From assembly GCA_009914755.4 (NCBI GenBank), contig CP086569.2, positions 48,352,001 through 48,416,000 of the forward strand: 64,000 bases of DNA, read 5' to 3'. The stretch's first letter is position 1; each line of letters starts with the position of its first letter. Positions 1 through 57,414 of this stretch are shown here, in pieces. The translations under genes were made by a program, and so were the position numbers. The notes under the pieces are model-generated. The model saw only the letters and a list, made by a program, of their open reading frames with translations, was not told the DNA's origin and searched no databases. This DNA is from the human T2T-CHM13v2.0 reference genome, Homo sapiens.

Positions 1-53
1 GGAATAAAATAGAATGAAAGAGAATCAAATGGAATTGAATCGAATGGAATCGA

Positions 54-3000
54 ATGGATTGGAAAGGAATAGAATGGAATGGAATGGAATGGACTCAAAT
101 GGAATGGACTAGAATGGAATGGATTCGAATGGAAGGCAAAGGAATGGAATCTATTGGAATGGACTGTAATGGAATGGAATGGAAGGGATTGGAATGGACT
201 CGAATGGAATGGACTGCAATAGAAAGTATTCGAATGGAATGAAAAAGAATTGAATGGAATAGAACAGAATGGAATCAAATCGAATGAAATGGAATGGAAT
301 AGAAAGGAATGGAATGAAATGGAATGGAAAGGATTCGAATGGAATGCAATCGAATGGAATGGAATCGAACGGAATGGAATAAAATGGAAGAAAACTGGCA
401 AGAAATGGAATCGAAATGAATGGAGTGTTATGGAACGGACTCAAAAGGAATTGAATGTAATAGAATGGAGTGGAGTGGACTCGAATATAATGGACTGGAA
501 TGGAATGAAATCACATGGAATGGGAACGAATGGAATGGAAAGGAATGGAATCGAATGGAAAGGAATCGAATGGAAGGGAATGAAATTGAATCAACAGGAA
601 TGGAAGGGAATAGAATAGACGGTAATGGAATGGACTCGAATAGAATGGACACGAATGCTCAAATTGAATGGACTCGAATGGAATGGAAACGAAAGGAATG
701 TCATCGAATGGAATTGAATCGATTGGAATGAAATCGCATAGAATGGAGTGGAATCAAATGGAATTGAATCGAAAGGAAAGGAAGCGAATGGACTGAAATG
801 AAATGGAATGGAATTGAATGGAAAGTAATGCAATGGAATAGAATGGAACGAAATTTCACGGAATGGAATCAAACTGAATGGAATCAAATCAATGGAATCA
901 AATCAAATGGAATGGAAAGGAATTGAATGGAGTAGATTGGATTGGATGGGATTGGAATGAAATGTACTGGAAAGGACTCGAATTTCATGAAACGGAATGG
1001 AATGAATTGGAACGGAATGGACTCGAATGGAATGGAATGTCATGGAATGGCATCAAATGGAATGGCATCAAATGGAATGGAATCGAATGCAATGGAATGC
1101 TATGGAATGGAATGGAATGCATTGGAATGGAATGTCCTCTAATGGAATGGATTCGAGTGGAATGGAATCGAATATAATGGAGTCGAATGAAATGGAATTG
1201 AAAGGAATGGGATCGAATACAATGGAATATACTGGAATGTAATGTAATGAACTAAAATGTAATTGACTGGAATGGAATGTACATGAATGGAATGTAATCG
1301 AATGGAAAGTAATCCAATGGAATAGAATCTAATGCAATAAAATCGACTCAGATAGAGTAGAATGTAATGGAATGGAGTGCAGTGCAATGGAATGGAATGG
1401 AATGGAATGGAATGGAATGGAATGGAATGGGATGGAATGGTATGGAATGGACAGTAATGGACTGGAGTGAAATGGACTGGAAAGGCATGGACTCAAATTG
1501 AAAGGGCTCGAAAGGAATAGAGACAAATGGAATGGTCTGGAATGGAATGAACACGAATGTAATGCAATCCAATAGAATGGAGTCGAATGGCATGGAATAT
1601 AAAGAAATGGAATCGAAGAGAATGGAAACAAATGGAATGGAATTGAATGGAATGGAATTGAATGGAATGGGAACGAATGGAGTGAAATTGTATGCAGTAG
1701 AAGAGAATAGAATGGAATGCAAGCGAAAGGAAAGGAATGGATTGGAATGGAATGGAATTCATTGGAATGGAAGGGAATGTAGTGTAATGGACAGGCCTGG
1801 AATAAAGTGGAATGCTAAGGTCTCGAATGGAATAAAAATGTATGGAATGGAATGCAATGAAACGGAATCGAATGTCATAGAATGTAATGGAATGCAAAAA
1901 AATGGAATCCAAAATCATTGACTGGAAAGGCTGGGTGTCGAAAGGAATTGACTCCAATGGAATGGAATCGAATGGAATGGAAGTGAATAGAATCGAACTA
2001 AATCGAATGGAATGGAATTGATAGGAACGGAATGGAAAGGAATGCAATGATTTGGCATGGAATGGAATCGAATGGCATCGAATGGAATGGAATGGAATGC
2101 AATGGAATGGAATGTATTAGAATGTAATGAACTTTAATGGAATGTACTCGAATGCATTCGACTGGAATGGAATTTTCTGGAAGTGAATGGACTCCAATGG
2201 AATGGATTCAAAAGGAATGGAATCTTACGGAATGGAATCTAATGGAATGGAATTAAATGGAAATGAATCAAATTGAATAGCACGGAATTGAATTGAATGG
2301 AATGGAATGCAATGAAATCTAATGAAACGGAAAGGAAAGGAATGGAATGGAATGGAATGGGCTGGAATGGAAAGGAATCGAAACGAATGGAATGGAATCG
2401 AACTGAAGAGACTGGAATGGAATGCACTGGAATGGAAGGGAGTGTAATGGAAGGTTCTCGAAAAAAATGGAATCGAATGGAATGGAATTGAATGGAAAGG
2501 AATAGAGTCGAATGGAATTGAATGGAATGGAATGGACTAGAGTGAAATGGAATCGAACCACAAGGAATGGACAGGAATAGAATGGTCTCGAATTGAATGG
2601 GATCGTATGGAATGGCATCAAACGGAATGGAATGGACAGCCACGGAATGGAATGCACTCGAATGCAATGGAGTCGAAACTAATGGACTGGAATAGAATGG
2701 ACTCGACTGGTACGGACTCCAATGGAATGGAATCGAATGGAAGGGAATCGAACGGAATGGACTCGAAGGGAAAAGACTGCAATGGAAAGGTCTCGAATGG
2801 AATGGAAATTAATGGAATGGAATGGAATCGAATGAAATGGAGTCAAAAGGAATGGAATCGAATGGCAAGAAATCGAATGTAATGGAATCAAAAGGAATTG
2901 ATGTGAACGGAACGGAATGGAATGGAATCCAAAGGAATGGAATAGAATGGAATGGAATCGAATGGAAAGGACTCGAATGGAAATCACTCGAATAGAATGC

Positions 3001-3577
3001 AATTTAATAAAATAGGATCAAATGTAATGGAATGGAATGGAAGGGAATCGAAACGAAAGGAATGGAGACAGATGGAATGGAATGGAAGAGAGAGCAATGG
3101 TATAGAATGGAATGGAATCATCTGGAATGGAATTGAATGGAATGGAATAATATGAAATGGAATGGAATGGAATGGAATGGAATGCCCTTGAATTAAATGG
3201 ACTGGACTCGAACAGAGTGGAATGGAAAGTGTTGAGATAGAATGGAATGGACTCCTTTGGAATGGTGTAGTATGCAATGCAATCGACTGGCATGGAATCA
3301 AAAGGAATGTAATGGAATGGATTGGACTGGAATGCAATGGACTCGAATAGATTGGAAACGGAATGCAAAGGAATGGAATGGAATAGTATGGAATTTAATG
3401 GAAAGGAATGGAGTGGAATAGACTAGAGTGGAATGGAATGGACTGGAAAGCAATGGACTGGAATGGAACATTCTTGAATGGACTGGAATCAAACGGAATG
3501 GAATGCAATGCAATCAAATGGCATGGAATAAAATAGAATGAAAGAGAATCAAATGGAATTGAATCGAATGGAATCGA
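54..3577 (+). repeat. HSat3 HOR unit 1 (3524 bp; arbitrary phase anchored on motif atggattggaaaggaatagaatgg). Bases 1-53 are the tail of the preceding unit.
   Basis: Anchor motif at 54 and 3578. Slightly short because of pentamer copy-number differences (for example a 5-bp loss near 520-540 relative to unit 2). Confidence 0.75.
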
Positions 3578-6500
3578 ATGGATTGGAAAGGAATAGAATG
3601 GAATGGAATGGAATTGACTCAAATGGAATGGACTAGAATGGAATGGATTCGAATGGAAGGCAAAGGAATGGAATCTACTGGAATGGACTGTAATGGAATG
3701 GAATGGAAGGGATTGGAATGGACTCGAATGGAATGGACTGCAATAGAAAGGATTCGAATGGAATGAAAAAGAATTGAATGGAATAGAACAGAATGGAATC
3801 AAATCGAATGAAATGGAATGGAATAGAAAGGAATGGAATGAAATGGAATGGAAAGGATTCGAATGGAATGCAATCGAATGGAATGGAATCGACCGGAATG
3901 GAATAAAATGGAAGAAAACTGGCAAGAAATGGAATCGAAATGAATGGAGTGTTATGGAACGGACTCAAAAGGAATTGAATGTAATAGAATGGAGTGGAGT
4001 GGACTCGAATATAATGGACCGGAATGGAATGAAATCACATGGAATGGGAACGAATGGAATGGAATGGAAAGGAATGGAATCGAATGGAAAGGAATCGAAT
4101 GGAAGGGAATGAAATTGAATCAACAGGAATGGAAGGGAATAGAATAGACGGTAATGGAATGGACTCGAATAGAATGGACACGAATGCTCAAATTGAATGG
4201 ACTCGAATGGAATGGAAACGAAAGGAATGTCATCGAATGGAATTGAATCGATTGGAATGAAATCGCATAGAATGGAGTGGAATCAAATGGAATTGAATCG
4301 AAAGGAAAGGAAGCGAATGGACTGAAATGAAATGGAATTGAATTGAATGGAAAGTAATGCAATGGAATAGAATGGAACGAAATTTCACGGAATGGAATCA
4401 AACTGAATGGAATCAAATCAATGGAATCAAATCAAATGGAATGGAAAGGAATTGAATGGAGTAGATTGGATTGGATGGGATTGGAATGAAATGTACTGGA
4501 AAGGACTCGAATTTCATGAAACGGAATGGAATGAATTGGAACGGAATGGACTCGAATGGAATGGAATGTCATGGAATGGCATCAAATGGAATGGCATCAA
4601 ATGGAATGGAATCGAATGCAATGGAATGCTATGGAATGGAATGGAATGCATTGGAATGGAATGTCCTCTAATGGAATGGATTCGAGTGGAATGGAATCGA
4701 ATATAATGGAGTCGAATGAAATGGAATTGAAAGGAATGGGATCGAATACAATGGAATATACTGGAATGTAATGTAATGAACTCGAATGTAATTGACTGGA
4801 ATGGAATGTACATGAATGGAATGTAATCGAATGGAAAGTAATCCAATGGAATAGAATCTAATGCAATAAAATCGACTCAGATAGAGTAGAATGTAATGGA
4901 ATGGAGTGCAGTGCAATGGAATGGAAAGGAATGGAATGCAATGGAATGGAATGGAATGGAATGGAATGGAATGGAATGGAATGGAATGGTGTGGAATGGA
5001 TAGTAATGGACTGGAGTGAAATGGACTGGAAAGGAATGGACTCAAATTGAAAGGGCTCGAAAGGAATGGAGTCAAATGGAATGGTCTGGAATGGAATGAA
5101 CACGAATGTAATGCAATCCAATAGAATGGAATCGAATGGCATGGAATATAAAGAAATGGAATCGAAGAGAATGGAAACAAATGGAATGGAATTGAGTGGA
5201 ACGGAATTGAATGGAATGGGAACGAATGGAGTGAAATTGTATGCAGTAGAAGAGAATAGAATGGAATGCAAGCGAAAGGAAAGGAATGGATTGGAATGGA
5301 ATGGAATTCATTGGAATGGAAGGGAATGTAGTGTAATGGACAGGCCTGGAATAAAGTGGAATGCTACGGTCTCGAATGGAATAAAAATGTATGGAATGGA
5401 ATGCAATGAAACGGAATCGAATGTCATAGAATGTAATGGAATGCAAAAAAATGGAATCCAAAATCATTGACTGGAAAGGCTGGGTGTCGAAAGGAATTGA
5501 CTCCAATGGAATGGAATCGAATGGAATGGAAGTGAATAGAATCGAACTAAATCGAATGGAATGGAATTGATAGGAACGGAATGGAAAGGAATGCAATGAT
5601 TTGGCATGGAATGGAATCGAATGGCATCGAATGGAATGGAATGGAATGCAATGGAATGGAATGTATTAGAATGTAATGAACTTTAATGGAATGTACTCGA
5701 ATGGATTCGACTGGAATGGAATGTTCTGGAAGTGAATGGACTCCAATGGAATGGATTCAAAAGGAATGGAATCGTACGGAATGGAATCTAATGGAATGGA
5801 ATTAAATGGAAATGAATCAAATTGAATAGCACGGAATTGAATTGAATGAAATGGAATGCAATGGAATCTAATGAAACGGAAAGGAAAGGAATGGAATGGA
5901 ATGGAATGGGCTGGAATGGAAAGGAATCGAAACGAATGGAATGGAATCGAACTGAAGAGACTGGAATGGAATGCACTGGAATGGAAGGGAGTGTAATGGA
6001 AGGTTCTCGAAAAAAATGCAATCGAATGGAATGGAATTGAATGGAACGGAATAGAGTCGAATGGAATTGAATGGAATGGAATGGACTAGAGTGAAATGGA
6101 ATCGAACCACAAGGAATGGACAGGAATAGAATGGTCTCGAATTGAATGGAATCGTATGGAATGGCATCAAACGGAATGGAATGGACAGCCACGGAATGGA
6201 ATGCACTCGAATGCAATGGAGTCGAAACTAATGGACTGGAATAGAATGGACTCGACTGGTACGGACTCCAATGGAATGGAATCGAATGGAAGGGAATCGA
6301 ACGGAATGGACTCGAAGGGAAAAGACTGCAATGGAAAGGTCTCGAATGGAATGGAAATTAATGGAATGGAATGGAATCGAATGAAATGGAGTCAAAAGGA
6401 ATGGAATCGAATGGCAAGAAATCGAATGTAATGGAATCGCAAGGAATTGATGTGAACGGAACGGAATGGAATGGAATCCAAAGGAATGGAATAGAATGGA

Positions 6501-7136
6501 ATGGAATCGAATGGAAAGGACTCGAATGGAAATCACTCGAATAGAATGCAATTTAATAAAATAGGATCAAATGTAATGGAATGGAATGGAAAGGAATCGA
6601 AACGAAAGGAATGGAGACAGATGGAATGGAATGGAACAGAGAGCAATGGTATAGAATGGAATGGAATCATCTGGAATGGAATTGAATGGAATGGAATAAT
6701 ATGAAATGGAATGGAATGGAATGGAATGGAATGCCCTTGAATTAAATGGACTGGAATGGAATGGACTCGAACAGAGTGGAATGGAAAGTGTTGAGATAGA
6801 ATGGAATGGACTCCTTTGGAATGGTCTAGTATGCAATGCAATCGACTGGCAGGGAATCAAAAGGAATGTAATGGAATGGATTGGACTGGAATGCAATGGA
6901 CTCGAATAGATTGGAAACGGAATGCAAAGGAATGGAATGGAATAGTATGGAATGGAATGGAAAGGAATGGAGTGGAATAGACTAGAGTGGAATGGAATGG
7001 ACTGGAAAGCAATGGACTGGAATGGAACTTTCTTGAATGGACTGGAATCAAACGGAATGGAATGCAATGCAATCAAATGGCATGGAATAAAATAGAATGA
7101 AAGAGAATCAAATGGAATTGAATCGAATGGAATCGA
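3578..7136 (+). repeat. HSat3 HOR unit 2 (3559 bp)
   Basis: Anchor-to-anchor distance; near-identity with neighbouring units. Confidence 0.75.
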
Positions 7137-8590
7137 ATGGATTGGAAAGGAATAGAATGGAATGGAATGGAATTGACTCAAATGGAATGGACTAGAATGG
7201 AATGGATTCGAATGGAAGGCAAAGGAATGGAATCTATTGGAATGGACTGTAATGGAATGGAATGGAAGGGATTGGAATGGACTCGAATGGAATGGACTGC
7301 AATAGAAAGGATTCGAATGGAATGAAAAAGAATTGAATGGAATAGAACAGAATGGAATCAAATCGAATGAAATGGAATGGAATAGAAAGGAATGGAATGA
7401 AATGGAATGGAAAGGATTCGAATGGAATGCAATCGAATGGAATGGAATCGAACGGAATGGAATAAAATGGAAGAAAACTGGCAAGAAATGGAATCGAAAT
7501 GAATGGAGTGTTATGGAACGGACTCAAAAGGAATTGAATGTAATAGAATGGAGTGGAGTGGACTCGAATATAATGGACTGGAATGGAATGAAATCACATG
7601 GAATGGGAACGAATGGAATGGAATGGAAAGGAATGGAATCGAATGGAAAGGAATCGAATGGAAGGGAATGAAATTGAATCAACAGGAATGGAAGGGAATA
7701 GAATAGACGGTAATGGAATGGACTCGAATAGAATGGACACGAATGCTCAATTTGAATGGACTCGAATGGAATGGAAACGAAAGGAATGTCATCGAATGGA
7801 ATTGAATCGATTGGAAAGAAATCGCATAGAATGGAGTGGAATCAAATGGAATTGAATCGAAAGGAAAGGAAGCGAATGGACTGAAATGAAATGGAATGGA
7901 ATTGAATGGAAAGTAATGCAATGGAATAGAATGGAACGAAATTTCACGGAATGGAATCAAACTGAATGGAATCAAATCAATGGAATCTAATCAAATGGAA
8001 TGGAAAGGAATTGAATGGAGTAGATTGGATTGGATGGGATTGGAATGAAATGTACTGGAAAGGACTCGAATTTCATGAAACGGAATGGAATGAATTGGAA
8101 CGGAATGGACTCGAATGGAATGGAATGTCATGGAATGGCATCAAATGGAATGGCATCAAATGGAATGGAATCGAATGCAATGGAATGTTATGGAATGGAA
8201 TGGAATGCATTGGAATGGAATGTCCTCTAATGGAATGGATTCGAGTGGAATGGAATCGAATATAATGGAGTCGAATGAAATGGAATTGAAAGGAATGGGA
8301 TCGAATAGAATGGAATATACTGGAATGTAATGTAATGAACTCGAATGTAATTGACTGGAATGGAATGTACATGAATGGAAGGTAATCGAATGGAAAGTAA
8401 TCCAATGGAATAGAATCTAATGCAATAAAACCGACTCAGATAGAGTAGAATGTAATGGAATGGAGTGCAGTGCAATGGAATGGAATGGAATTGAATGCAA
8501 TGGAATGGAATGGAATGGAATGGAATGGAATGGAATGGGATGGAATGGTATGGAATGGATAGTAATGGACTGGAGTGAAATGGACTGGAA

Positions 8591-10314
8591 AGGAATGGAC
8601 TCAAATTGAAAGGGCTCGAAAGGAATGGAGTCAAATGGAATGGTCTGGAATGGAATGAACACGAATGTAATGCAATCCAATAGAATGGAATCGAATGGCA
8701 TGGAATATAAAGAAATGGATTCGAAGAGAATGGAAACAAATGGAATGGAATTGAATGGAATGGAATTGAATGGAATGGGAACGAATGGAGTGAAATTGTA
8801 TGCAGTAGAAGGGAATAGAATGGAATGCAAGCGAAAGGAAAGGAATGGATTGGAATGGAATGGAATTCATTGGAATGGAAGGGAATGTAGTGTAATGGAC
8901 AGGCCTGGAATAAAGTGGAATGCTACAGTCTCGAATGGAATAAAAATGTATGGAATGGAATGCAATGAAACGGAATCGAATGTCATAGAATGTAATGGAA
9001 TGCAACAAAATGGAATCCAAAATCATTGACTGGAAAGGCTGGGTGTCGAAAGGAATTGACTCCAATGGAATGGAATCGAATGGAATGGAAGTGAATAGAA
9101 TCGAACTAAATCGAATGGAATGGAATTGATAGGAACGGAATGGAAAGGAATGCAATGATTTGGCATGGAATGGAATCGAATGGCATCGAATGGAATGGAA
9201 TGGAATGCAATGGAATGGAATGTATTAGAATGTAATGAACTTTAATGGAATGTACTCGAATGGATTCGACTGGAATGGAATGTTCTGGAAGTGAATGGAC
9301 TCCAACGGAATGGATTCCAAAGGAATGGAATCGTACGGAATGGAATCTAATGGAATGGAATTAAATGGAAATGAATCAAATTGAATAGCACGGAATTGAA
9401 TTGAATGGAATGGAATGCAATGGAATCTAATGAAACGGAAAGGAAAGGAATGGAATGGAATGGAATGGGCTGGAATGGAAAGGAATCGAAACGAATGGAA
9501 TGGAATCGAACTGAAGAGACTGGAATGGAATGCACTGGAATGGAAGGGAGTGTAATGGAAGGTTCTCGAAAAAAATGGAATCGAATGGAATGGAATTGAA
9601 TGGAACGGAATAGAGTCGAATGGAATTGAATGGAATGGAATGGACTAGAGTGAAATGGAATCGAACCACAAGGAATGGACAGGAATAGAATGGTCTCGAA
9701 TTGAATGGAATCGTATGGAATGGCATCAAACGGAATGGAATGGACAGCCACGGAATGGAATGCACTCGAATGCAATGGAGTCGAAACTAATGGACTGGAA
9801 TAGAATGGACTCGACTGGTACGGACTCCAATGGAATGGAATCGAATGGAAGGGAATCGAACGGAATGGACTCGAAGGGAAAAGACTGCAATGGAAAGGTC
9901 TCGAATGGAATGGAAATTAATGGAATGGAATGGAATCGAATGAAATGGAGTCAAAAGGAATGGAATCGAATGGCAAGAAATCGAATGTAATGGAATCGCA
10001 AGGAATTGATGTGAACGGAACGGAATGGAATGGAATCCAAAGGAATGGAATAGAATGGAATGGAATCGAATGGAAAGGACTCGAATGGAAATCACTCGAA
10101 TAGAATGCAATTTAATAAAATAGGATCAAATGTAATGGAATGGAATGGAAAGGAATCGAAACGAAAGGAATGGAGACAGATGGAATGGAATGGAAAAGAG
10201 AGCAATGGTATAGAATGGAATGGAATCATCTGGAATGGAATTGAATGGAATGGAATAATATGAAATGGAATGGAATGGAATGGAATGGAATGCCCTTGAA
10301 TTAAATGGACTGGA
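8591..10314 (+). repeat. Source copy of the 1724-bp intra-HOR tandem duplication
   Basis: Direct comparison: 10291-10314 'tgcccttgaattaaatggactgga' is followed at 10315 by 'aaggaatggactcaaattgaaagggctcgaaaggaatggag', which is the sequence found at 8591. There is 6-bp microhomology 'ctggaa' at both breakpoints (8585-8590 and 10309-10314). Confidence 0.75.
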
Positions 10315-12038
10315 AAGGAATGGACTCAAATTGAAAGGGCTCGAAAGGAATGGAGACAAATGGAATGGTCTGGAATGGAATGAACACGAATGTAATGCAA
10401 TCCAATAGAATGGAGTCGAATGGCATGGAATATAAAGAAATGGAATCGAAGAGAATGGAAACAAATGGAATGGAATTGAATGGAATGGAATTGAATGGAA
10501 TGGGAACGAATGGAGTGAAATTGTATGCAGTAGAAGAGAATAGAATGGAATGCAAGCGAAAGGAAAGGAATGGATTGGAATGGAATGGAATTCATTGGAA
10601 TGGAAGGGAATGTAGTGTAATGGACAGGCCTGGAATAAAGTGGAATGCTACGGTCTCGAATGGAATAAAAATGTATGGAATGGAATGCAATGAAACGGAA
10701 TCGAATGTCATAGAATGTAATGGAATGCAAAAAAATGGAATCCAAAATCATTGACTGGAAAGGCTGGGTGTCGAAAGGAATTGACTCCAATGGAATGGAA
10801 TCGAATGGAATGGAAGTGAATAGAATCGAACTAAATCGAATGGAATGGAATTGATAGGAACGGAATGGAAAGGAATGCAATGATTTGGCACGGAATGGAA
10901 TCGAATGGCATCGAATGGAATGGAATGGAATGCAATGGAATGGAACGTATTAGAATGTAATGAACTTTAATGGAATGTACTCGAATGGATTCGACTGGAA
11001 TGGAATGTTCTGGAAGTGAATGGACTCCAATGGAATGGATTCAAAAGGAATGGAATCGTACGGAATGGAATCTAATGGAATGGAATTAAATGGAAATGAA
11101 TCAAATTGAATAGCATGGAATTGAATTGAATGGAATGGAATGCAATGGAATCTAATGAAACGGAAAGGAAAGGAATGGAATGGAATGGGCTGGAATGGAA
11201 AGGAATCGAAACGAATGGAATGGAATCGAACTGAAGAGACTGGAATGGAATGCACTGGAATGGAAGGGAGTGTAATGGAAGGTTCTCGAAAAAAATGGAA
11301 TCGAATGGAATGGAATTGAATGGAACGGAATAGAGTCGAATGGAATTGAATGGAATGGAATGGACTAGAGTGAAATGGAATCGAACCACAAGGAATGGAC
11401 AGGAATAGAATGGTCTCGAATTGAATGGAATCGTATGGAATGGCATCAAACGGAATGGAATGGACAGCCACGGAATGGAATGCACTCGAATGCAATGGAG
11501 TCGAAACTAATGGACTGGAATAGAATGGACTCGACTGGTACGGACTCCAATGGAATGGAATCGAATGGAAGGGAATCGAACGGAATGGACTCGAAGGGAA
11601 AAGACTGCAATGGAAAGGTCTCGAATGGAATGGAAATTAATGGAATGGAATGGAATCGAATGAAATGGAGTCAAAAGGAATGGAATCGAATGGCAAGAAA
11701 TCGAATGTAATGGAATCGCAAGGAATTGATGTGAACGGAACGGAATGGAATGGAATCCAAAGGAATGGAATAGAATGGAATGGAATCGAATGGAAAGGAC
11801 TCGAATGGAAATCACTCGAATAGAATGCAATTTAATAAAATAGGACCAAATGTAATGGAATGGAATGGAAAGGAATCGAAACGAAAGGAATGGAGACAGA
11901 TGGAATGGAATGGAACAGAGAGCAATGGTATAGAATGGAATGGAATCATCTGGAATGGAATTGAATGGAATGGAATAATATGAAATGGAATGGAATGGAA
12001 TGGAATGGAATGCCCTTGAATTAAATGGACTGGAATGG
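10315..12038 (+). repeat. Duplicate copy of the 1724-bp intra-HOR segment
   Basis: Colinear with 8591-10314. The normal HOR continuation ('ttaaatggactggaatggaatggactcgaacagagtgg') resumes at ~12020-12060. Confidence 0.75.
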
Positions 12039-12415
12039 AATGGACTCGAACAGAGTGGAATGGAAAGTGTTGAGATAGAATGGAATGGACTCGTTTGGAA
12101 TGGTCTAGTAGGCAATGCAATCGACTGGCAGGGAATCAAAAGGAATGTAATCGAATGGATTGGACTGGAATGCAATGGACTCGAATAGATTGCAAACGGA
12201 ATGCAAAGGAATGGAATGGAATAGTATGGAATGGAATGGAAAGGAATGGAGTGGAATAGACTAGAGTGGAATGGAATGGACTGGAAAGAAATGGACTGGA
12301 ATGGAACTTTCTTGAATGGACAGGAATCAAACGGAATGGAATGCAATGCAATCAAATGGCATGGAATAAAATAGAATGAAAGAGAATCAAATGGAATTGA
12401 ATCGAATGGAATCGA

Positions 12416-15400
12416 ATGGATTGGAAAGGAATAGAATGGAATGGAATGGAATTGACTCAAATGGAATGGACTAGAATGGAATGGATTCGAATGGAAGGCA
12501 AAGTAATGGAATCTATTGGAATGGACTGTAATGGAATGGAATGGAAGGGATTGGAATGGACTCGAATGGAATGGACTGCAATAGAAAGGATTCGAATGGA
12601 ATGAAAAAGAATTGAATGGAATAGAACAGAATGGAATCAAATCGAATGAAATGGAATGGAATAGAAAGGAATGGAATGAAATGGAATGGAAAGGATTCGA
12701 ATGGAATGCAATCGAATGGAATGGAATCGAACGGAATGGAATAAAATGGAAGAAAACTGGCAAGAAATGGAATCGAAATGAATGGAGTGTTATGGAACGG
12801 ACTCAAAAGGAATTGAATGTAATATAATGGAGTGGAGTGGACTCGAATATAATGGACTGGAATGGAATGAAATCACATGGAATGGGAACGAATGGAATGG
12901 AATGGAAAGGAATGGAATCGAATGGAAAGGAATCGAATGGAAGGGAATGAAATTGAATCAACAGGAATGGAAGGGAATAGAATAGACGGTAATGGAATGG
13001 ACTCGAATAGAATGGACACGAATGCTCAAATTGAATGGACTCGAATGGAATGGAAACGAAAGGAATGTCATCGAATGGAATTGAATCGATTGGAATGAAA
13101 TCGCACAGAATGGAGTGGAATCAAATGGAATTGAATCGAAAGGAAAGGAAGCAAATGGACTGAAATGAAATGGAATGGAATTGAATGGAAAGTTATGTAA
13201 TGGAATACAATGGAACGAAATTTCACGGAATGGAATCAAACTGAATGGAATCAAATCAATGGAATCAAATCAAATGGAATGGAAAGGAATTGAATGGAGT
13301 AGATTGGATGGGATGGGATTGGAATGAAATGTACTGGAAAGGACTCGAATTTCATGAAACGGAATGGAATGAATTGGAACGGAATGGACTCGAATGGAAT
13401 GGAATGTCAGGGAATGGCATCAAATGGAATGGCATCAAATGGAATGGAATCGAATGCAATGGAATGCTATGGAATGGAATGGAATGCATTGGAATGGAAT
13501 GTCCTCTAATGGAATGGATTCGAGTGGAATGGAATCGAATATAATGGAGTCGAATGAAATGGAATTGAAAGGAATAGGATCGAATACAATGGAATATACT
13601 GGAATGTAATTTAATGAACTCGAATGTAATTGACTGGAATGGAATGTACATGAATGGAATGTAATCGAATGGAAAGTAATCCAATGGAATAGATTCTAAT
13701 GCAATAAAATCGACTCAGATAGAGTAGAATGTAATGGAATGGAGTGCAGTGCAATGGAATGGAATGGAATGGAATGCAATGGAATGGAATGGAATGGAAT
13801 GGAATGGAATGGAATGGAATGGAATGGAATGGAATGGAATGGTGTGGAATGGATAGTAATGGACTGGAGTGAAATGGACTGGAAAGGAATGGACTCAAAT
13901 TGAAAGGGCTCGAAAGGAATGGAATCAAATGGAATGGTCTGGAATGGAATGAACACGAATGTAATGCAATCCAATAGAATGGAATCGAATGGCATGGAAT
14001 ATAAAGAAATGGAATCGAAGAGAATGGAAACAAATGGAATGGAATTGAGTGGAATGGAATTGAATGGAATGGGAACGAATGGAGTGAAATTGTATGCAGT
14101 AGAAGAGAATAGAATGGAATGCAAGCGAAAGGAAAGGAATGGATTGGAATGGAATGGAATTCATTGGAATGGAAGGGAATGTAGTGTAATGGACAGGCCT
14201 GGAATAAAGTGGAATGCTACGGTCTCGAATGGAATAAAAATGTATGGAATGGAATGCAATGAAACGGAATCGAATGTCATAGAATGTAATGGAATGCAAA
14301 AAAATGGAATCCAAAATCATTGACTGGAAAGGCTGGGTGTCGAAAGGAATTGACTCCAATGGAATGGAATCGAATGGAATGGAAGTGAATAGAATCGAAC
14401 TAAATCGAATGGAATGGAATTGATAGGAACGGAATGGAAAGGAATGCAATGATTTGGCACGGAATGGAATCGAATGGCATCGAATGGAATGGAATGGAAT
14501 GCAATGGAATGGAACGTATTAGAATGTAATGAACTTTAATGGAATGTACTCGAATGGATTCGACTGGAATGGAATGTTCTGGAAGTGAATGGACTCCAAT
14601 GGAATGGATTCAAAAGGAATGGAATCGTACGGAATGGAATCTAATGGAATGGAATTAAATGGAAATGAATCAAATTGAATAGCATGGAATTGAATTGAAT
14701 GGAATGGAATGCAATGGAATCTAATGAAACGGAAAGGAAAGGAATGGAATGGAATGGGCTGGAATGGAAAGGAATCGAAACGAATGGAATGGAATCGAAC
14801 TGAAGAGACTGGAATGGAATGCACTGGAATGGAAGGGAGTGTAATGGAAGGTTCTCGAAAAAAATGGAATCGAATGGAATGGAATTGAATGGAACGGAAT
14901 AGAGTCGAATGGAATTGAATGGAATGGAATGGACTAGAGTGAAATGGAATCGAACCACAAGGAATGGACAGGAATAGAATGGTCTCGAATTGAATGGAAT
15001 CGTATGGAATGGCATCAAACGGAATGGAATGGACAGCCACGGAATGGAATGCACTCGAATGCAATGGAGTCGAAACTAATGGACTGGAATAGAATGGACT
15101 CGACTGGTACGGACTCCAATGGAATGGAATCGAATGGAAGGGAATCGAACGGAATGGACTCGAAGGGAAAAGACTGCAATGGAAAGGTCTCGAATGGAAT
15201 GGAAATTAATGGAATGGAATGGAATCGAATGAAATGGAGTCAAAAGGAATGGAATCGAATGGCAAGAAATCGAATGTAATGGAATCGCAAGGAATTGATG
15301 TGAACGGAACGGAATGGAATGGAATCCAAAGGAATGGAATAGAATGGAATGGAATCGAATGGAAAGGACTCGAATGGAAATCACTCGAATAGAATGCAAT

Positions 15401-15984
15401 TTAATAAAATAGGACCAAATGTAATGGAATGGAATGGAAAGGAATCGAAACGAAAGGAATGGAGACAGATGGAATGGAATGGAACAGAGAGCAATGGTAT
15501 AGAATGGAATGGAATCATCTGGAATGGAATTGAATGGAATGGAATAATATGAAATGGAATGGAATGGAATGGAATGGAATGCCCTTGAATTAAATGGACT
15601 GGAATGGAATGGACTCGAACAGAGTGGAATGGAAAGTGTTGAGATAGAATGGAATGGACTCGTTTGGAATGGTCTAGTAGGCAATGCAATCGACTGGCAG
15701 GGAATCAAAAGGAATGTAATCGAATGGATTGGACTGGAATGCAATGGACTCGAATAGATTGCAAACGGAATGCAAAGGAATGGAATGGAATAGTATGGAA
15801 TGGAATGGAAAGGAATGGAGTGGACTAGACTAGAGTGGAATGGAATGGACTGGAAAGAAATGGACTGGAATGGAACTTTCTTGAATGGACAGGAATCAAA
15901 CGGAATGGAATGCAATGCAATCAAATGGCATGGAATAAAATAGAATGAAAGAGAATCAAATGGAATTGAATCGAATGGAATCGA
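12416..15984 (+). repeat. HSat3 HOR unit 4 (3569 bp)
   Basis: Anchor spacing. Contains the longest pure (aatgg)n run in the window, at ~13741-13850. Confidence 0.75.
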
Positions 15985-18900
15985 ATGGATTGGAAAGGAA
16001 TAGAATGGAATGGAATGGAATTGACTCAAATGGAATGGACTAGAATGGAATGGATTCGAATGGAAGGCAAAGGAATGGAATCTATTGGAATGGACTGTAA
16101 TGGAATGGAATGGAAGGGATTGGAATGGACTCGAATGGAATGGACTGCAATAGAAAGGATTCGAATGGAATGAAAAAGAATTGAATGGAATAGAACAGAA
16201 TGGAATCAAATCGAATGAAATGGAATGGAATAGAAAGGAATGGAATGAAATGGAATGGAAAGGATTCGAATGGAATGCAATCGAATGGAATGGAATCGAA
16301 CGGAATGGAATAAAATGGAAGAAAACTGGCAAGAAATGGAATCGAAATGAATGGAGTGTTATGGAACGGACTCAAAAGGAATTGAATGTAATAGAATGGA
16401 GTGGAGTGGACTCGAATATAATGGACTGGAATGGAATGAAATCACATGGAATGGGAACGAATGGAATGGAATGGAAAGGAATGGAATCGAATGGAAAGGA
16501 ATCGAATGGAAGGGAATGTAATTGAATCAACAGGAATGGAAGGGAATAGAATAGACGGTAATGGAATGGACTCGAATTGAATGGACACGAATGCTCAAAT
16601 TGAATGGACTCGAATGGAATGGAAACGAAAGGAATGTCATCGAATGGAATTGAATCGATTGGAATGAAATCGCATAGAATGGAGTGGAATCAAATGGAAT
16701 TGAATCGAAAGGAAAGGAAGCGAATGGACTGAAATGAAATGGAATGGAATTGAATGGAAAGTAATGCAATGGAATAGAATGGAACGAAATTTCACGGAAT
16801 GGAATCAAACTGAATGGAATCAAATCAATGGAATCTAATCAAATGGAATGGAAAGGAATTGAATGGAGTAGATTGGATTGGATGGGATTGGAATGAAATG
16901 TACTGGAAAGGACTCGAATTTCATGAAACGGAATGGAATGAATTGGAACGGAATGGACTCGAATGGAATGGAATGTCATGGAATGGCATCAAATGGAATG
17001 GCATCAAATGGAATGGAATCGAATGCAATGGAATGCTATGGAATGGAATGGAATGCATTGGAATGGAATGTCCTCTAATGGAATGGATTCGAGTGGAATG
17101 GCATCGAATATAATGGAGTCGAATGAAATGGAATTGAAAAGAATGGGATCGAATACAATGGAATATACTGGAATGTAATGTAATGAACTCGAATGTAATT
17201 GACTGGAATGGAATGTACATGAATGGAATGTAATCGAATGGAAAGTAATCCAATGGAATAGAATCTAATGCAATAAAATCGACTCAAATAGAGTAGAATG
17301 TAATGGAATGGAGTGCAGTGCAATGGAATGGAATGGAATGGAATGCAATGGAATGGAATGGAATGGAATGGAATTTAATGGAATGGGATGGAATGGTATG
17401 GAATGGATAGTAATGGACTGGAGTGAAATGGACTGGAAAGGAATGGACTCAAATTGAAAGGGCTCGAAAGGAATGGAGTCAAATGGAATGGTCTGGAATG
17501 GAATGAACACGAATGTAATGCAATCCAATAGAATGGAATCGAATGGCATGGAATATAAAGAAATGGAATCGAAGAGAATGGAAACAAATGGAATGGAATT
17601 GAATGGAATGGAATTGAATGGAATGGGAACGAATGGAGTGAAATTGTATGCAGTAGAAGGGAATAGAATGGAATGCAAGCGAAAGGAAAGGAATGGATTG
17701 GAATGGAATGGAATTCATTGGAATGGAAGGGAATGTAGTGTAATGGACAGGTCTGGAATAAAGTGGAATGCTACGGTCTCGAATGGAATAAAAATGTATG
17801 GAATGGAATGCAATGAAACGGAATCGAATGTCATAGAATGTAATGGAATGCAAAAAAATGGAATCCAAAATCATTGACTGGAAAGGCTGGGTGTCGAAAG
17901 GAATTGACTCCAATGGAATGGAATCGAATGGAATGGAAGTGAATAGAATCGAACTAAATCGAATGGAATGGAATTGATAGGAACGGAATGGAAAGGAATG
18001 CAATGATTTGGCATGGAATGGAATCGAATGGCATCGAATGGAATGGAATGGAATGCAATGGAATGGAATGTATTAGAATGTAATGAACTTTAATGGAATG
18101 TACTCGAATGGATTCGACTGGAATGGAATGTTCTGGAAGTGAATGGACTCCAACGGAATGGATTCCAAAGGAATGGAATCGTACGGAATGGAATCTAATG
18201 GAATGGAATTAAATGGAAATGAATCAAATTGAATAGCACGGAATTGAATTGAATGGAATGGAATGCAATGGAATCTAATGAAACGGAAAGGAAAGGAATG
18301 GAATGGAATGGAATGGGCTGGAATGGAAAGGAATCGAAACGAATGGAATGGAATCGAACTGAAGAGACTGGAATGGAATGCACTGGAATGGAAGGGAGTG
18401 TAATGGAAGGTTGTCGAAAAAAATGGAATAGAATGGAATGGAATTGAATGGAACGGAATAGAGTCGAATGGAATTGAATGGAATGGAATGGACTAGAGTG
18501 AAATGGAATCGAACCACAAGGGATGGACAGGAATAGAATGGTCTCGAATTGAATGGAATCGTATGGAATGGCATCAAACGGAATGGAATGGACAGCCACG
18601 GAATGGAATGCACTCGAATGCAATGGAGTCGAAACTAATGGACTGGAATAGAATGGACTCGACTGGTACGGACTCCAATGGAATGGAATCGAATGGAAGG
18701 GAATCGAACGGAATGGACTCGAAGGGAAAAGACTGCAATGGAAAGGTCTCGAATGGAATGGAAATTAATGGAATGGAATGGAATCGAATGAAATGGAGTC
18801 AAAAGGAATGGAATCGAATGGCAAGAAATCGAATGTAATGGAATCGCAAGGAATTGATGTGAACGGAACGGAATGGAATGGAATCCAAAGGAATGGAATA

Positions 18901-19543
18901 GAATGGAATGGAATCGAATGGAAAGGACTCGAATGGAAATCACTCGAATAGAATGCAATTTAATAAAATAGGACCAAATGTAATGGAATGGAATGGAAAG
19001 GAATCGAAACGAAAGGAATGGAGACAGATGGAATGGAATGGAACAGAGAGCAATGGTATAGAATGGAATGGAATCATCTGGAATGGAATTGAATGGAATG
19101 GAATAATATGAAATGGAATGGAATGGAATGGAATGGAATGCCCTTGAATTAAATGGACTGGAATGGAATGGACTCGAACAGAGTGGAATGGAAAGTGTTG
19201 AGATAGAATGGAATGGACTCGTTTGGAATGGTCTAGTAGGCAATGCAATCGACTGGCAGGGAATCAAAAGGAATGTAATCGAATGGATTGGACTGGAATG
19301 CAATGGACTCGAATAGATTGCAAACGGAATGCAAAGGAATGGAATGGAATAGTATGGAATGGAATGGAAAGGAATGGAGTGGAATAGACTAGAGTGGAAT
19401 GGAATGGACTGGAAAGAAATGGACTGGAATGGATCTTTCTTGAATGGACAGGAATCAAACGGAATGGAATGCAATGCAATCAAATGGCATGGAATAAAAT
19501 AGAATGAAAGAGAATCAAATGGAATTGAATCGAATGGAATCGA
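15985..19543 (+). repeat. HSat3 HOR unit 5 (3559 bp), subfamily 'd'
   Basis: Anchor spacing. Shares private variants with unit 6: 'ggcatcgaatataatgg' (17099-17115), 'ttgaaaagaatggg' (17135-17148), 'ctcaaatagag', and 'gaatgtaattgaatc' (16514-16528). Confidence 0.75.
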
Positions 19544-22500
19544 ATGGATTGGAAAGGAATAGAATGGAATGGAATGGAATTGACTCAAATGGAATGGACT
19601 AGAATGGAATGGATTCGAATGGAAGGCAAAGGAATGGAATCTATTGGAATGGACTGTAATGGAATGGAATGGAAGGGATTGGAATGGACTCGAATGGAAT
19701 GGACTGCAATAGAAAGGATTCGAATGGAATGAAAAAGAATTGAATGGAATAGAACAGAATGGAATCAAATCGAATGAAATGGAATGGAATAGAAAGGAAT
19801 GGAATGAAATGGAATGGAAAGGATTCGAATGGAATGCAATCGAATGGAATGGAATCGAACGGAATGGAATAAAATGGAAGAAAACTGGCAAGAAATGGAA
19901 TCGAAATGAATGGAGTGTTATGGAACGGACTCAAAAGGAATTGAATGTAATAGAATGGAGTGGAGTGGACTCGAATATAATGGACTGGAATGGAATGAAA
20001 TCACATGGAATGGGAACGAATGGAATGGAATGGAAAGGAATGGAATCGAATGGAAAGGAATCGAATGGAAGGGAATGTAATTGAATCAACAGGAATGGAA
20101 GGGAATAGAATAGACGGTAATGGAATGGACTCGAATTGAATGGACACGAATGCTCAAATTGAATGGACTCGAATGGAATGGAAACGAAAGGAATGTCATC
20201 GAATGGAATTGAATCGATTGGAATGAAATCGCATAGAATGGAGTGGAATCAAATGGAATTGAATCGAAAGGAAAGGAAGCGAATGGACTGAAATGAAATG
20301 GAATGGAATTGAATGGAAAGTAATGCAATGGAATAGAATGGAACGAAATTTCACGGAATGGAATCAAACTGAATGGAATCAAATCAATGGAATCTAATCA
20401 AATGGAATGGAAAGGAATTGAATGGAGTAGATTGGATTGGATGGGATTGGAATGAAATGTACTGGAAAGGACTCGAATTTCATGAAACGGAATGGAATGA
20501 ATTGGAACGGAATGGACTCGAATGGAATGGAATGTCATGGAATGGCATCAAATGGAATGGCATCAAATGGAATGGAATCGAATGCAATGGAATGCTATGG
20601 AATGGAATGGAATGCATTGGAATGGAATGTCCTCTAATGGAATGGATTCGAGTGGAATGGCATCGAATATAATGGAGTCGAATGAAATGGAATTGAAAAG
20701 AATGGGATCGAATACAATGGAATATACTGGAATGTAATGTAATGAACTCGAATGTAATTGACTGGAATGGAATGTACATGAATGGAATGTAATCGAATGG
20801 AAAGTAATCCAATGGAATAGAATCTAATGCAATAAAATCGACTCAAATAGAGTAGAATGTAATGGAATGGAGTGCAGTGCAATGGAATGGAATGGAATGG
20901 AATGCAATGGAATGGAATGGAATGGAATGGAATGGAATTTAATGGAATGGGATGGAATGGTATGGAATGGATAGTAATGGACTGGAGTGAAATGGACTGG
21001 AAAGGAATGGACTCAAATTGAAAGGGCTCGAAAGGAATGGAGTCAAATGGAATGGTCTGGAATGGAATGAACACGAATGTAATGCAATCCAATAGAATGG
21101 AATCGAATGGCATGGAATATAAAGAAATGGAATCGAAGAGAATGGAAACAAATGGAATGGAATTGAATGGAATGGAATTGAATGGAATGGGAACGAATGG
21201 AGTGAAATTGTATGCAGTAGAAGGGAATAGAATGGAATGCAAGCGAAAGGAAAGGAATGGATTGGAATGGAATGGAATTCATTGGAATGGAAGGGAATGT
21301 AGTGTAATGGACAGGTCTGGAATAAAGTGGAATGCTACGGTCTCGAATGGAATAAAAATGTATGGAATGGAATGCAATGAAACGGAATCGAATGTCATAG
21401 AATGTAATGGAATGCAAAAAAATGGAATCCAAAATCATTGACTGGAAAGGCTGGGTGTCGAAAGGAATTGACTCCAATGGAATGGAATCGAATGGAATGG
21501 AAGTGAATAGAATCGAACTAAATCGAATGGAATGGAATTGATAGGAACGGAATGGAAAGGAATGCAATGATTTGGCATGGAATGGAATCGAATGGCATCG
21601 AATGGAATGGAATGGAATGCAATGGAATGGAATGTATTAGAATGTAATGAACTTTAATGGAATGTACTCGAATGGATTCGACTGGAATGGAATGTTCTGG
21701 AAGTGAATGGACTCCAACGGAATGGATTCCAAAGGAATGGAATCGTACGGAATGGAATCTAATGGAATGGAATTAAATGGAAATGAATCAAATTGAATAG
21801 CACGGAATAGAATTGAATGGAATGGAATGCAATGGAATCTAATGAAACGGAAAGGAAAGGAATGGAATGGAATGGAATGGGCTGGAATGGAAAGGAATCG
21901 AAACGAATGGAATGGAATCGAACTGAAGAGACTGGAATGGAATGCACTGGAATGGAAGGGAGTGTAATGGAAGGTTGTCGAAAAAAATGGAATCGAATGG
22001 AATGGAATTGAATGGAACGGAATAGAGTCGAATGGAATTGAATGGAATGGAATGGACTAGAGTGAAATGGAATCGAACCACAAGGGATGGACAGGAATAG
22101 AATGGTCTCGAATTGAATGGAATCGTATGGAATGGCATCAAACGGAATGGAATGGACAGCCACGGAATGGAATGCACTCGAATGCAATGGAGTCGAAACT
22201 AATGGACTGGAATAGAATGGACTCGACTGGTACGGACTGCAATGGAATGGAATCGAATGGAAGGGAATCGAACGGAATGGACTCGAAGGGAAAAGACTGC
22301 AATGGAAAGGTCTCCAATGGAATGGAAATTAATGGAATGGAATGGAATCGAATGAAATGGAGTCAAAAGGAATGGAATCGAATGGCAAGAAATCGAATGT
22401 AATGGAATCGCAAGGAATTGATGTGAACGGAACGGAATGGAATGGAATCCAAAGGAATGGAATAGAATGGAATGGAATCGAATGGAAAGGACTCGAATGG

Positions 22501-23106
22501 AAATCACTCGAATAGAATGCAATTTAATAAAATAGGATCAAATGTAATGGAATGGAATGGAAAGGAATCGAAACGAAAGGAATGGAGACAGATGGAATGG
22601 AATGGAACAGAGAGCAATGGTATAGAATGGAATGGAATCATCTGGAATGGAATTGAATGGAATGGAATAATATGAAATGGAATGGAATGGAATGGAATGG
22701 AATGCCTTGAATTAAATGGACTGGAATGGAATGGACTCGAACAGAGTGGAATGGAAAGTGTTGAGATAGAATGGAATGGACTCCTTTGGAATGGTCTAGT
22801 ATGCAATGCAATCGACTGGTAGGGAATCAAAAGGAATGTAATCGAATGGATTGGACTGGAATGCAATGGACTCGAATAGATTGGAAACGGAATGCAAAGG
22901 AATGGAATGGAATAGTATGGAATGGAATGGAAAGGAATGGAGTGGAATAGACTAGAGTGGAATGGAATGGACTGGAAAGCAATAGACTGGAATGGAACTT
23001 TCTTGAATGGACTGGAATCAAACGGAATGGAATGCAATGCAATCAAATGGCATGGAATAAAATAGAATGAAAGAGAATCAAATGGAATTGAATCGAATGG
23101 AATCGA
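19544..23106 (+). repeat. HSat3 HOR unit 6 (3563 bp), subfamily 'd', near-identical to unit 5
   Basis: Same private variants as unit 5 (20653-20669, 20689-20702, 20073-20087), implying a recent single-unit tandem duplication. Confidence 0.75.
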
Positions 23107-26100: not shown

Positions 26101-26680
26101 TAAAATAGGATCAAATGTAATGGAATGGAATGGAAAGGAATCGAAACGAAAGGAATGGAGACAGATGGAATGGAATGGAACAGAGAGCAATGGTATAGAA
26201 TGGAATGGAATCATCTGGAATGGAATTGAATGGAATGGAATAATATGAAATGGAATGGAATGGAATGGAATGGAATGCCCTTGAATTAAATGGACTGGAA
26301 TGGAATGGACTCGAACAGAGTGGAATGGAAAGTGTTGAGATAGAATGGAATGGACTCCTTTGGAATGGTGTAGTATGCAATGCAATCGACTGGCAGGGAA
26401 TCAAAAGGAATGTAATGGAATGGACTGGACTGGAATGCAATGGACTCGAATAGATTGGAAACGGAATGCAAAGGAATGGAATGGAATAGTATGGAATGGA
26501 ATGGAAAGGAATGGAGTGGAATAGACTAGAGTGGAATGGAATGGACTGGAAAGCAATGGACTGGAATGGATCTTTCTTGAATGGACTGGAATCAAACGGA
26601 ATGGAATGCAATGCAATCAAATGGCATGGAATAAAATAGAATGAAAGAGAATCAAATGGAATTGAATCGAATGGAATCGA
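23107..26680 (+). repeat. HSat3 HOR unit 7 (3574 bp)
   Basis: Anchor spacing. Shares the 'gaatagaatggaatatac' (R) and 'gaatgttatgg' variants with unit 3 (8115-8330 versus 24085-24300). Confidence 0.75.
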
Positions 26681-29600: not shown

Positions 29601-30224
29601 GGAAAGGACTCGAATGGAAATCACTCGAATAGAATGCAATTTAATAAAATAGGACCAAATGTAATGGAATGGAATGGAAAGGAATCGAAACGAAAGGAAT
29701 GGAGACAGATGGAATGGAATGGAACAGAGAGCAATGGTATAGAATGGAATGGAATCATCTGGAATGGAATTGAATGGAATGGAATAATATGAAATGGAAT
29801 GGAATGGAATGGAATGGAATGCCCTTGAATTAAATGGACTGGAATGGAATGGACTCGAACAGAGTGGAATGGAAAGTGTTGAGATAGAATGGAATGGACT
29901 CGTTTGGAATGGTCTAGTAGGCAATGCAATCGACTGGCAGGGAATCAAAAGGAATGTAATCGAATGGATTGGACTGGAATGCAATGGACTCGAATAGATT
30001 GCAAACGGAATGCAAAGGAATGGAATGGAATAGTATGGAATGGAATGGAAAGGAATGGAGTGGAATAGACTAGAGTGGAATGGAATGGACTGGAAAGAAA
30101 TGGACTGGAATGGAACTTTCTTGAATGGACAGGAATCAAACGGAATGGAATGCAATGCAATCAAATGGCATGGAATAAAATAGAATGAAAGAGAATCAAA
30201 TGGAATTGAATCGAATGGAATCGA
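26681..30224 (+). repeat. HSat3 HOR unit 8 (3544 bp), subfamily 'a'
   Basis: 15-bp deletion at 27530/27531 ('aaaggaattgaatgg' missing; 'aatccaatcaaatggaatggagtagattgg'), 'gtcatagaatg' variant at 27656-27666, and a 10-bp deletion at 29592/29593. Confidence 0.75.
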
Positions 30225-56366: not shown

Positions 56367-56372
56367 ATATAT
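56361..56372. other. HSat3 (DYZ1-type) to AT-rich (DYZ2-type) array junction, breakpoint between 56366 and 56367
   Basis: '...ccaatggaatagaatc|atatatgatatataatatatgtataatattgttttacatcctg'. The left side is phased to the HSat3 HOR. The right side is phased to an internal position of the AT-rich segment (equivalent to ~58019). Confidence 0.85.

Positions 56373-57116: not shown

Positions 57117-57414
<298 letters not shown>

What the first reader, a model, noticed from the sequence alone, without database searches (positions are those of the whole stretch)
8591..12038. 1.72-kb intra-HOR tandem duplication creates a 5.28-kb variant HSat3 unit
Segment 8591-10314 is repeated immediately at 10315-12038 with 6-bp 'ctggaa' microhomology at the breakpoint. 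Unit 3 is therefore 5279 bp instead of ~3559. Such length variants are how new HOR forms arise by out-of-register exchange between the pentamer-rich parts of neighbouring units. It may also be a polymorphic marker within the array.
Basis: seen in the sequence. Interest (0 to 1): 0.5.

Follow-up and report, generated by a model that had tools for sequence, protein, structure and literature searches.

The report
One-off length variant in DYZ1 satellite
One unit of the human Y-chromosome DYZ1 (HSat3) satellite carries its 1.72-kb second half twice, joined at a 13-bp shared motif; this is an ordinary by-product of out-of-register exchange between repeat units and is seen only once here.

Summary
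The window contains about 15.8 units of a 3.54-3.57 kb GGAAT-rich repeat (1-56366). These units are 98.2-99.3% identical to a published 3,564-bp DYZ1 unit. They are followed by a 2.42-kb AT-rich DYZ2-like repeat. Exactly one unit is 5,279 bp long (6757-12035), because its second half (the 'B' part) occurs twice in tandem.

Three details of the finding need correcting:
- The copies are 8591-10315 (1,725 bp) and 10316-12035 (1,720 bp), not 1,724 bp each.
- They differ by 13 substitutions and one 5-bp indel (99.24% identity).
- The junction homology is 13 bp exact (AAATGGACTGGAA, 10303-10315), or 26 of 28 when extended, not 6 bp.

The two copies are as different from each other as any two units of the array. 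Eleven of the 13 substitutions are variants also seen in other units. The copies therefore derive from two different parent units. This fits out-of-register, homology-mediated exchange, and the result is formally either a 1.72-kb gain of B or a 1.84-kb loss of A.

The variant is not propagated. It occurs once among roughly 15 units here, and the hybrid junction appears at none of 54 equivalent sites in public contaminant contigs. Read support could not be checked. This is a routine satellite structural variant of low interest.

The parts
1..56366 (-). DYZ1 (HSat3A6) array, about 15.8 units of 3,539-3,574 bp. The classical TTCCA/HaeIII-unit orientation is on the minus strand.
   Evidence: Units are 98.2-99.3% identical to the published 3,564-bp DYZ1 unit. 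Periods come, the HaeIII/EcoRI ladder and the HSat3A6 24-mer.
6757..12035 (.). The variant 5,279-bp unit, arranged A - B(copy 1) - B(copy 2).
   Evidence: Anchor spacing 6757->12036. K-mer next-occurrence distance is 5279 for 7044-8257.
6757..8577 (.). A part of the variant unit (single copy).
   Evidence: Colinear with the A parts of neighbouring units.
8578..8590 (.). x site: the 13-mer AAATGGACTGGAA at the A->B transition. It corresponds to positions 314-326 of the published DYZ1 unit on the opposite strand.
8591..10315 (.). Copy 1 of the B segment (1,725 bp).
   Evidence: Offsets 1725/1720 to copy 2 at 98-100% identity per 100 bp. Nearest other units are U04 and U07, at 9 differences each.
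9449..9453 (.). The 5-bp AATGG present in copy 1 and absent from copy 2 and from the next unit. It is the only indel between the copies.
10303..10315 (.). Hybrid junction. The 13-bp exact homology AAATGGACTGGAA has y-type sequence to its left and x-type sequence to its right, so the crossover lies within these 13 bp.
   Evidence: alignments; the 41-mer hybrid junction occurs once, against 13 canonical x and 13 canonical y sites.
10316..12035 (.). Copy 2 of the B segment (1,720 bp).
   Evidence: The nearest unit is the following one (U03), at 4 differences, all within 10355-10480.
12023..12035 (.). y site: the same 13-mer at the normal B->A transition after copy 2. It corresponds to positions 2153-2165 of the published DYZ1 unit on the opposite strand.
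10481..12255 (.). A 1,775-bp patch with no difference from the sequence one unit downstream (14050-15824). It runs across the copy 2 -> A boundary and points to recent in-register conversion or exchange.

Best explanation
The feature is a single structural variant inside a human Yq12 DYZ1 (HSat3A6) array. Each DYZ1 unit carries the 13-mer AAATGGACTGGAA twice, and the surrounding sequence matches at 26 of 28 positions. One copy (x) lies where the unit's first half (A, about 1.84 kb) meets its second half (B, about 1.72 kb). The other copy (y) lies at the end of B.

A homology-mediated exchange joined the y site of one unit to the x site of a different unit. Candidate processes are unequal sister-chromatid exchange, intrachromatid recombination or single-strand annealing, and template switching. 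The arrays were misaligned by +1,720 bp, or equivalently by -1,839 bp, modulo whole units. The product is ...A-B|B-A..., that is, one 5,279-bp unit.

Shown: the structure, the junction, the motif at both parental sites in all units, and the different-unit origin of the two copies.

Inferred: the molecular pathway, and whether the net change was a gain of B or a loss of A.

The variant has no evident function and has not been amplified. Copy 2 has since taken part in ordinary in-register homogenisation with the next unit.
For: - Structure and coordinates.
- The junction is y-type on the left and x-type on the right, with 13 bp of exact overlap.
- A random junction in this unit has 13 bp or more of homology with P = 0.0044 and a mean of 1.2 bp, so the event was homology-guided.
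- The copies differ at 13 substitutions and 1 indel. Canonical unit pairs have a median of 15 and adjacent pairs a mean of 14.6.
- At 11 of the 13 substitutions, both alleles are also seen in third units. Copy 1 has 2 private substitutions and copy 2 has none. This holds even if the next unit is ignored.
- DYZ1 identity.
- Unequal exchange, sister-chromatid exchange and interlocus gene conversion are documented for Yq12 (bioRxiv 10.1101/2022.12.01.518724; PMC12240836).
Against: - No reads are available, so the junction is not independently validated.
- Gene conversion is active here: a 1,775-bp patch is identical to the next unit. It could have overwritten an originally identical copy, which weakens the 'two parents' inference.
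- The x/y pair is not special. About 2,550 long-range position pairs per unit share 13 bp or more, and 97 share 20 bp or more, so nothing explains why this pair was used.
- The reciprocal A-A product is not in the window.
Confidence: 0.72

Rival explanations
1. This was a true tandem duplication of the B segment of one single unit, by replication slippage or microhomology-mediated break-induced replication at the 13-bp motif. The copies were identical at birth and were later made different by gene conversion from other units plus a few point mutations.
For: The structure and microhomology are equally compatible with this. Conversion-like identity patches do exist, one of them covering 90% of copy 2. 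Interlocus gene conversion in Yq12 is documented (PMC12240836).
Against: Conversion would have to explain 11 shared-polymorphism differences spread over the whole 1.72 kb. Three of them lie in the first 165 bp of copy 2, outside the identity patch, and copy 1 carries alleles of yet other unit types. Only 2 differences look like new mutations. Several independent conversion events are less parsimonious than a single exchange between two units.
Confidence: 0.17
2. This is an assembly artefact: a false join or false expansion in a highly repetitive array, with a normal 3.56-kb unit in the real chromosome.
For: Yq12 is among the hardest regions to assemble (10.1101/2022.12.01.518658). The junction 41-mer was found in no public contig.
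Against: - The two copies are not identical, and neither is an exact copy of any other unit in the window. Copy 1 is at least 9 differences from every unit. Copy 2 combines two variants otherwise seen only in U00 with a U03-like remainder.
- A hybrid y/x junction across only 13 bp of identity cannot be made by overlap collapse and must exist in at least one read.
- Short-read public contigs collapse to the consensus, so rare junctions would not be expected in them.
Confidence: 0.08
3. This is chance similarity from the pentameric background, not a real duplication.
For: None beyond the roughly 66-70% identity that any in-phase offset gives.
Against: The copies are 99.24% identical over 1,720 bp, against a 66% background.
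Confidence: 0

Closest known systems
DYZ1 / HSat3A6, the 3.56-kb human Yq12 satellite unit (Nakahori-type 3,564-bp HaeIII unit; Altemose 2014; Rhie 2023; Hallast 2023)
   Same: The units match a published DYZ1 unit at 98.2-99.3% identity. They show the 3.54-3.57 kb HaeIII and EcoRI periodicity, about 38-39% GC, the HSat3A6 24-mer and adjacency to a DYZ2-like repeat.
   Different: One unit is 5,279 bp with the B half doubled. On virtual HaeIII or EcoRI digestion it yields an extra 1,725-bp fragment. The papers searched describe only small DYZ1 indels of 5-35 bp (PMC3925983) and whole-unit changes. None mentions a 5.28-kb form.
Structural variants of higher-order repeats produced by unequal crossing-over, such as alpha-satellite HOR length variants. 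One example is the Y-centromere DYZ3 36-mer versus 34-mer forms noted in Hallast 2023.
   Same: A unit-length change is created by exchange between non-equivalent but similar positions of a tandem repeat. The junction is a hybrid and lies in shared sequence.
   Different: Those alpha-satellite variants are amplified and define array subtypes or haplogroups. This one is a singleton in 56 kb. Its exchange sites share only 13 bp exactly (26 of 28), not a whole homologous monomer.
The 2.7-kb repeat next to DYZ18, 77% of which is derived from DYZ1 (Hallast 2023)
   Same: It is a non-canonical unit length built from DYZ1 sequence by rearrangement.
   Different: The 2.7-kb repeat is a DYZ18/DYZ1 chimera that has been amplified into its own array. 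The present variant is pure DYZ1 and is not amplified.

Membership tests
DYZ1 / HSat3A6 satellite | High sequence identity to a published DYZ1 3.56-kb unit | tested here: met
   All 14 full units align end-to-end at 98.2-99.3% to the 3,564-bp MZT1a unit from PMC3925983 Additional file 1.
DYZ1 / HSat3A6 satellite | About 3.56-kb HaeIII (and EcoRI) periodicity | tested here: met
   Virtual digests give 3,539-3,573-bp fragments. Exceptions are the variant, which gives 1,725 bp, and three units that have lost the HaeIII site. Hallast 2023 reports 3,569 bp as the commonest HaeIII fragment.
DYZ1 / HSat3A6 satellite | Subfamily-specific 24-mer listed for HSat3A6 (TCGTTTCGATTCCTTTCCATTCCA; Altemose 2014, PMC4022460) | tested here: met
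   There are 31 exact matches, two per unit and four in the variant unit. None is expected by chance.
DYZ1 / HSat3A6 satellite | Classical DYZ1 PCR primer pair giving a 154-bp product (primers recalled from memory, not found in the paper library) | tested here: met
   Both primers match once per unit, spanning 154 bp, and twice in the variant unit. The text search for the primer found nothing.
DYZ1 / HSat3A6 satellite | Location in Yq12, in blocks alternating with DYZ2/HSat1B | tested here: inconclusive
   The array abuts a 2.42-kb repeat of 20-30% GC. That repeat gives 2.1-kb HaeIII fragments and has an Alu-like piece, as described for DYZ2. Chromosomal position itself cannot be read from the window.
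Satellite length variant made by out-of-register (unequal) exchange | Colinear tandem repeat of an internal segment, with a hybrid junction in sequence shared by the two parental sites | tested here: met
   Junction homology of 13 bp has P = 0.0044 for a random junction.
Satellite length variant made by out-of-register (unequal) exchange | The two copies descend from different parental units | tested here: met
   The copy 1 to copy 2 distance equals the typical inter-unit distance. Eleven of 13 substitutions are shared polymorphisms. Caveat: gene conversion could mimic this pattern.
Satellite length variant made by out-of-register (unequal) exchange | Junction supported by spanning reads, or present in related chromosomes | not testable with these tools
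   No reads or human assemblies are available. Only contaminant contigs could be scanned.
New HOR form (amplified variant unit) | The variant unit recurs, in tandem or elsewhere, as a repeating unit in its own right | tested here: not met
   The hybrid junction occurs once in about 15 units. There were no exact hits in genome or metagenome contigs. All 54 sampled y sites in 53 public contigs are canonical.

The most novel reading that the evidence does not exclude
The x/y 13-mer pair may be a recurrent exchange hotspot. Alternatively, the A-B-B unit may have been amplified in other DYZ1 blocks or in particular Y haplogroups. In either case the 5.28-kb unit, and its 1,725-bp HaeIII/EcoRI fragment, would be an emerging new DYZ1 HOR form and a lineage marker for Yq12 evolution.
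Probability: 0.08. Interest if true: 0.3.

Novelty: new member of a known kind. Interest (0 to 1): 0.12.

Why it matters
It matters little on its own. It is a clean, base-resolved example of how satellite unit-length variants arise: a hybrid junction in a 13-bp motif, with two copies traceable to different parent units. The junction 41-mer and the 1,725-bp HaeIII/EcoRI fragment give a simple handle for asking, in the many complete Y assemblies now available, how often such out-of-register events occur in Yq12 and whether they spread. If the variant turns out to be unique to one chromosome, it is just one more private structural variant in the most mutable part of the Y.

Tried and rejected
The correct offsets are 1725 and then 1720.
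- The repeat finder on 8000-12600 was swamped by the pentamer background and did not report the 1.72-kb pair.
- A text search for the DYZ1 primer sequence found no paper. The primers therefore rest on memory, and identity was established from a published DYZ1 sequence instead.
- I tested whether x and y are equivalent positions of an older half-unit periodicity, and rejected it. Whole-unit identity at offsets 1715-1845 is 0.33-0.35, no better than background. Similarity around x/y falls from 83% (+-15 bp) to 66% (+-200 bp), which is the pentamer background.
- I tested whether the x/y motif is the longest available out-of-register homology, and rejected it. Ninety-seven long-range pairs share 20 bp or more, up to 35 bp.
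- Exact scans of genome contigs and metagenome contigs for the hybrid junction found nothing. The relaxed control pattern recovered 53 DYZ1-bearing contaminant contigs, all canonical. This gives only a weak upper bound, because short-read assemblies collapse satellites.
- Several Yq12 papers were searched or read. None mentions a 5.28-kb DYZ1 variant.
- One paper search failed on a term that was too short.

Full report
**What the window is**

Positions 1-56366 are strongly G-over-C skewed at 38-40% GC, and the rest is 20-30% GC. A 40-mer next-occurrence scan shows a period of 3,524-3,574 bp up to about 52.6 kb and a period of 2,416-2,421 bp from 56.4 kb onward.

The 3.5-kb units align end-to-end, on the minus strand, at 98.2-99.3% identity to a published 3,564-bp DYZ1 HaeIII unit. 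That unit is MZT1a blood, taken from Additional file 1 of PMC3925983.

Further evidence points the same way:
- The HSat3A6 marker 24-mer of Altemose 2014 (PMC4022460) occurs twice per unit.
- A classical DYZ1 primer pair, recalled from memory, brackets 154 bp once per unit.
- Virtual HaeIII and EcoRI digests give the classical ladder of about 3.56 kb, and 2.1-kb HaeIII fragments in the AT-rich repeat.

This matches the published description of Yq12. DYZ1/HSat3A6 units of about 3.5-3.6 kb at 38% GC alternate with DYZ2/HSat1B units of about 2.4 kb at 24% GC, and 3,569 bp is the commonest DYZ1 HaeIII fragment.

**Checking the observation**

With a 40-mer just after the end of the duplicated segment as anchor, successive units start at 6757, 12036, 15605, 19164 and so on. 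One interval is 5,279 bp. The other 13 intervals between successive unit starts (3198 to 54721) are 3,539-3,574 bp.

Within the long unit, 8591-9450 matches the sequence 1,725 bp downstream and 9454-10315 matches the sequence 1,720 bp downstream. Identity is 98-100% per 100 bp, while other in-phase offsets give about 66%.

The correct copies are 8591-10315 (1,725 bp) and 10316-12035 (1,720 bp). They are colinear and differ by 13 substitutions and one 5-bp indel at 9449-9453.

**The junction**

Every unit carries the 13-mer AAATGGACTGGAA at two places: at the start of the duplicated segment (site x) and at its end (site y). The flanks extend the match to 26 of 28 positions. On the published DYZ1 unit these sites are positions 314-326 and 2153-2165 of the opposite strand.

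At 10303-10315 the sequence to the left is y-type (…CCCTTGAATT) and the sequence to the right is x-type (AGGAATGGACTCAAATTG…). The crossover therefore lies inside the 13-mer.

For random junctions within a unit, the mean homology is 1.2 bp and P(13 bp or more) = 0.0044. The event was therefore homology-guided.

The site is not exceptional, however. About 2,550 long-range position pairs per unit share 13 bp or more, and 97 share 20 bp or more. There is also no trace of an older half-unit periodicity that would make x and y equivalent positions.

**Where the two copies came from**

In an alignment of all units, the two copies differ by 13 substitutions. Canonical B parts differ by a median of 15, and adjacent units by a mean of 14.6.

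At 11 of those 13 sites, both alleles are also present in other units of the array. Copy 1 has only two private substitutions and copy 2 has none. Copy 1 shares alleles with U04-U07, U11 and others. Copy 2 shares alleles with U10, U03 and, in its first 165 bp, U00.

This is the pattern expected if the junction joined two different units, that is, an unequal or out-of-register exchange. It is not expected if one unit's segment was copied in place and then mutated.

One consequence follows. In a tandem array ...A-B-A-B..., joining the y site of unit i to the x site of unit j always gives the local structure A-B-B-A. The structure alone therefore cannot say whether the net change was +1,720 bp (a gain of B), -1,839 bp (a loss of A), or either of these plus whole units. 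'Duplication' is a description, not a demonstrated history.

**Later history**

From 10481 to 12255 (1,775 bp) the sequence is identical to that one unit downstream. Only three differences follow in the next 700 bp, after which the density returns to normal.

The patch crosses the boundary between copy 2 and the following A part as if it were an ordinary B->A transition. Copy 2 has therefore since taken part in normal in-register homogenisation. Similar patches link U04 and U05.

This fits published evidence for unequal exchange, sister-chromatid exchange and interlocus gene conversion in Yq12. It is also the main caveat: conversion could in principle have overwritten an originally identical copy. 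I rate that rival at about 0.17. It would need several tracts, including changes outside the identity patch and in copy 1.

**Is the variant common?**

The 41-mer hybrid junction occurs once in the window, against 13 canonical x and 13 canonical y sites. The reciprocal A-A junction is absent.

Exact scans of the bacterial/archaeal genome collection and the metagenome collection found no hybrid junction. A relaxed pattern that accepts both canonical y and hybrid junctions recovered 53 human-contaminant contigs with 54 sites, all canonical. Many of these contigs are DYZ1 at 96-99% identity.

Because short-read assemblies collapse satellites to their consensus, this shows only that the variant is not the predominant form. 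The papers searched describe small DYZ1 indels of 5-35 bp, whole-unit DYZ2 de novo changes and a DYZ18/DYZ1 chimeric 2.7-kb repeat. None describes a 5.28-kb DYZ1 unit.

**Artefact?**

Read support cannot be checked here. Internal evidence argues against a false duplication. Neither copy is an exact copy of anything else in the window. A hybrid junction across only 13 bp of identity cannot arise from overlap collapse. I leave 0.08 for mis-assembly.

**Verdict**

The feature is a real-looking, singleton A-B-B length variant of the DYZ1 unit, made by out-of-register homology-mediated exchange between two units. It is one more instance of a well-known process in a region already known to evolve this way, so interest is low (0.12). 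Its only practical use is as a junction marker to survey across complete Y assemblies.

Noticed in passing
window 56340-56400 (boundary at about 56366/56367): There is an abrupt DYZ1 -> AT-rich DYZ2-like transition. The last DYZ1 unit is truncated at position 492 of the published 3,564-bp unit.
   Followed up: partly
window 56367-64000: This is a 2,416-2,421-bp AT-rich repeat (20-30% GC) with clustered HaeIII sites giving 2,144-2,147-bp fragments. It has one sub-threshold hit per unit to the Rfam family mir-1268 on the minus strand (57221-57287, 59642-59708, 62060-62126). From my own knowledge mir-1268 is Alu-derived, so the hits would fit the Alu fragment described for DYZ2/HSat1B.
   Followed up: partly
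window 17745-17767, 21309-21331, 28436-28458: Three units (U04, U05, U07) have lost the diagnostic HaeIII site (GGCC->GACC), giving virtual fragments of 10,691 and 7,093 bp. The same three units form a tight group in the B part, 2-5 differences apart, and are interrupted by the unrelated U06.
   Followed up: partly
window 15876-18245 versus 19435-21809: Long, nearly perfect identity patches link neighbouring units U04 and U05, with exact runs of 1,460 and 859 k-mer positions. Their A parts differ at only 2 sites. This indicates very recent local homogenisation or unit duplication.
   Followed up: no
window 1-3197 (U00) and 36963-40501 (U10): Two units are clearly more divergent than the rest in the B part, at 18-35 differences from all others, with 14 and 12 private substitutions.
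   Followed up: no
window 12289, 15858, 19417, 30098 (and 52284, 54673): A third, polymorphic copy of the breakpoint 13-mer AAATGGACTGGAA is present in only some units, about 266 bp after the y site.
   Followed up: no
window, e.g. 9471-9494 and 10141-10164: The HSat3A6 marker 24-mer occurs twice per unit, 660-670 bp apart, and 25-35-bp exact repeats occur at spacings of 666-710 bp. This hints at an older internal duplication within the DYZ1 unit.
   Followed up: no
loci L001-L053: Human DYZ1 sequence sits as contamination in public bacterial genome assemblies and in many metagenome contigs. Examples are Actinomadura cremea JCM 3308, several Streptomyces and Streptosporangium JCM strains, Ornithinimicrobium laminariae and some MAGs. 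Several contigs are about 3.6 kb, that is, one collapsed unit.
   Followed up: partly
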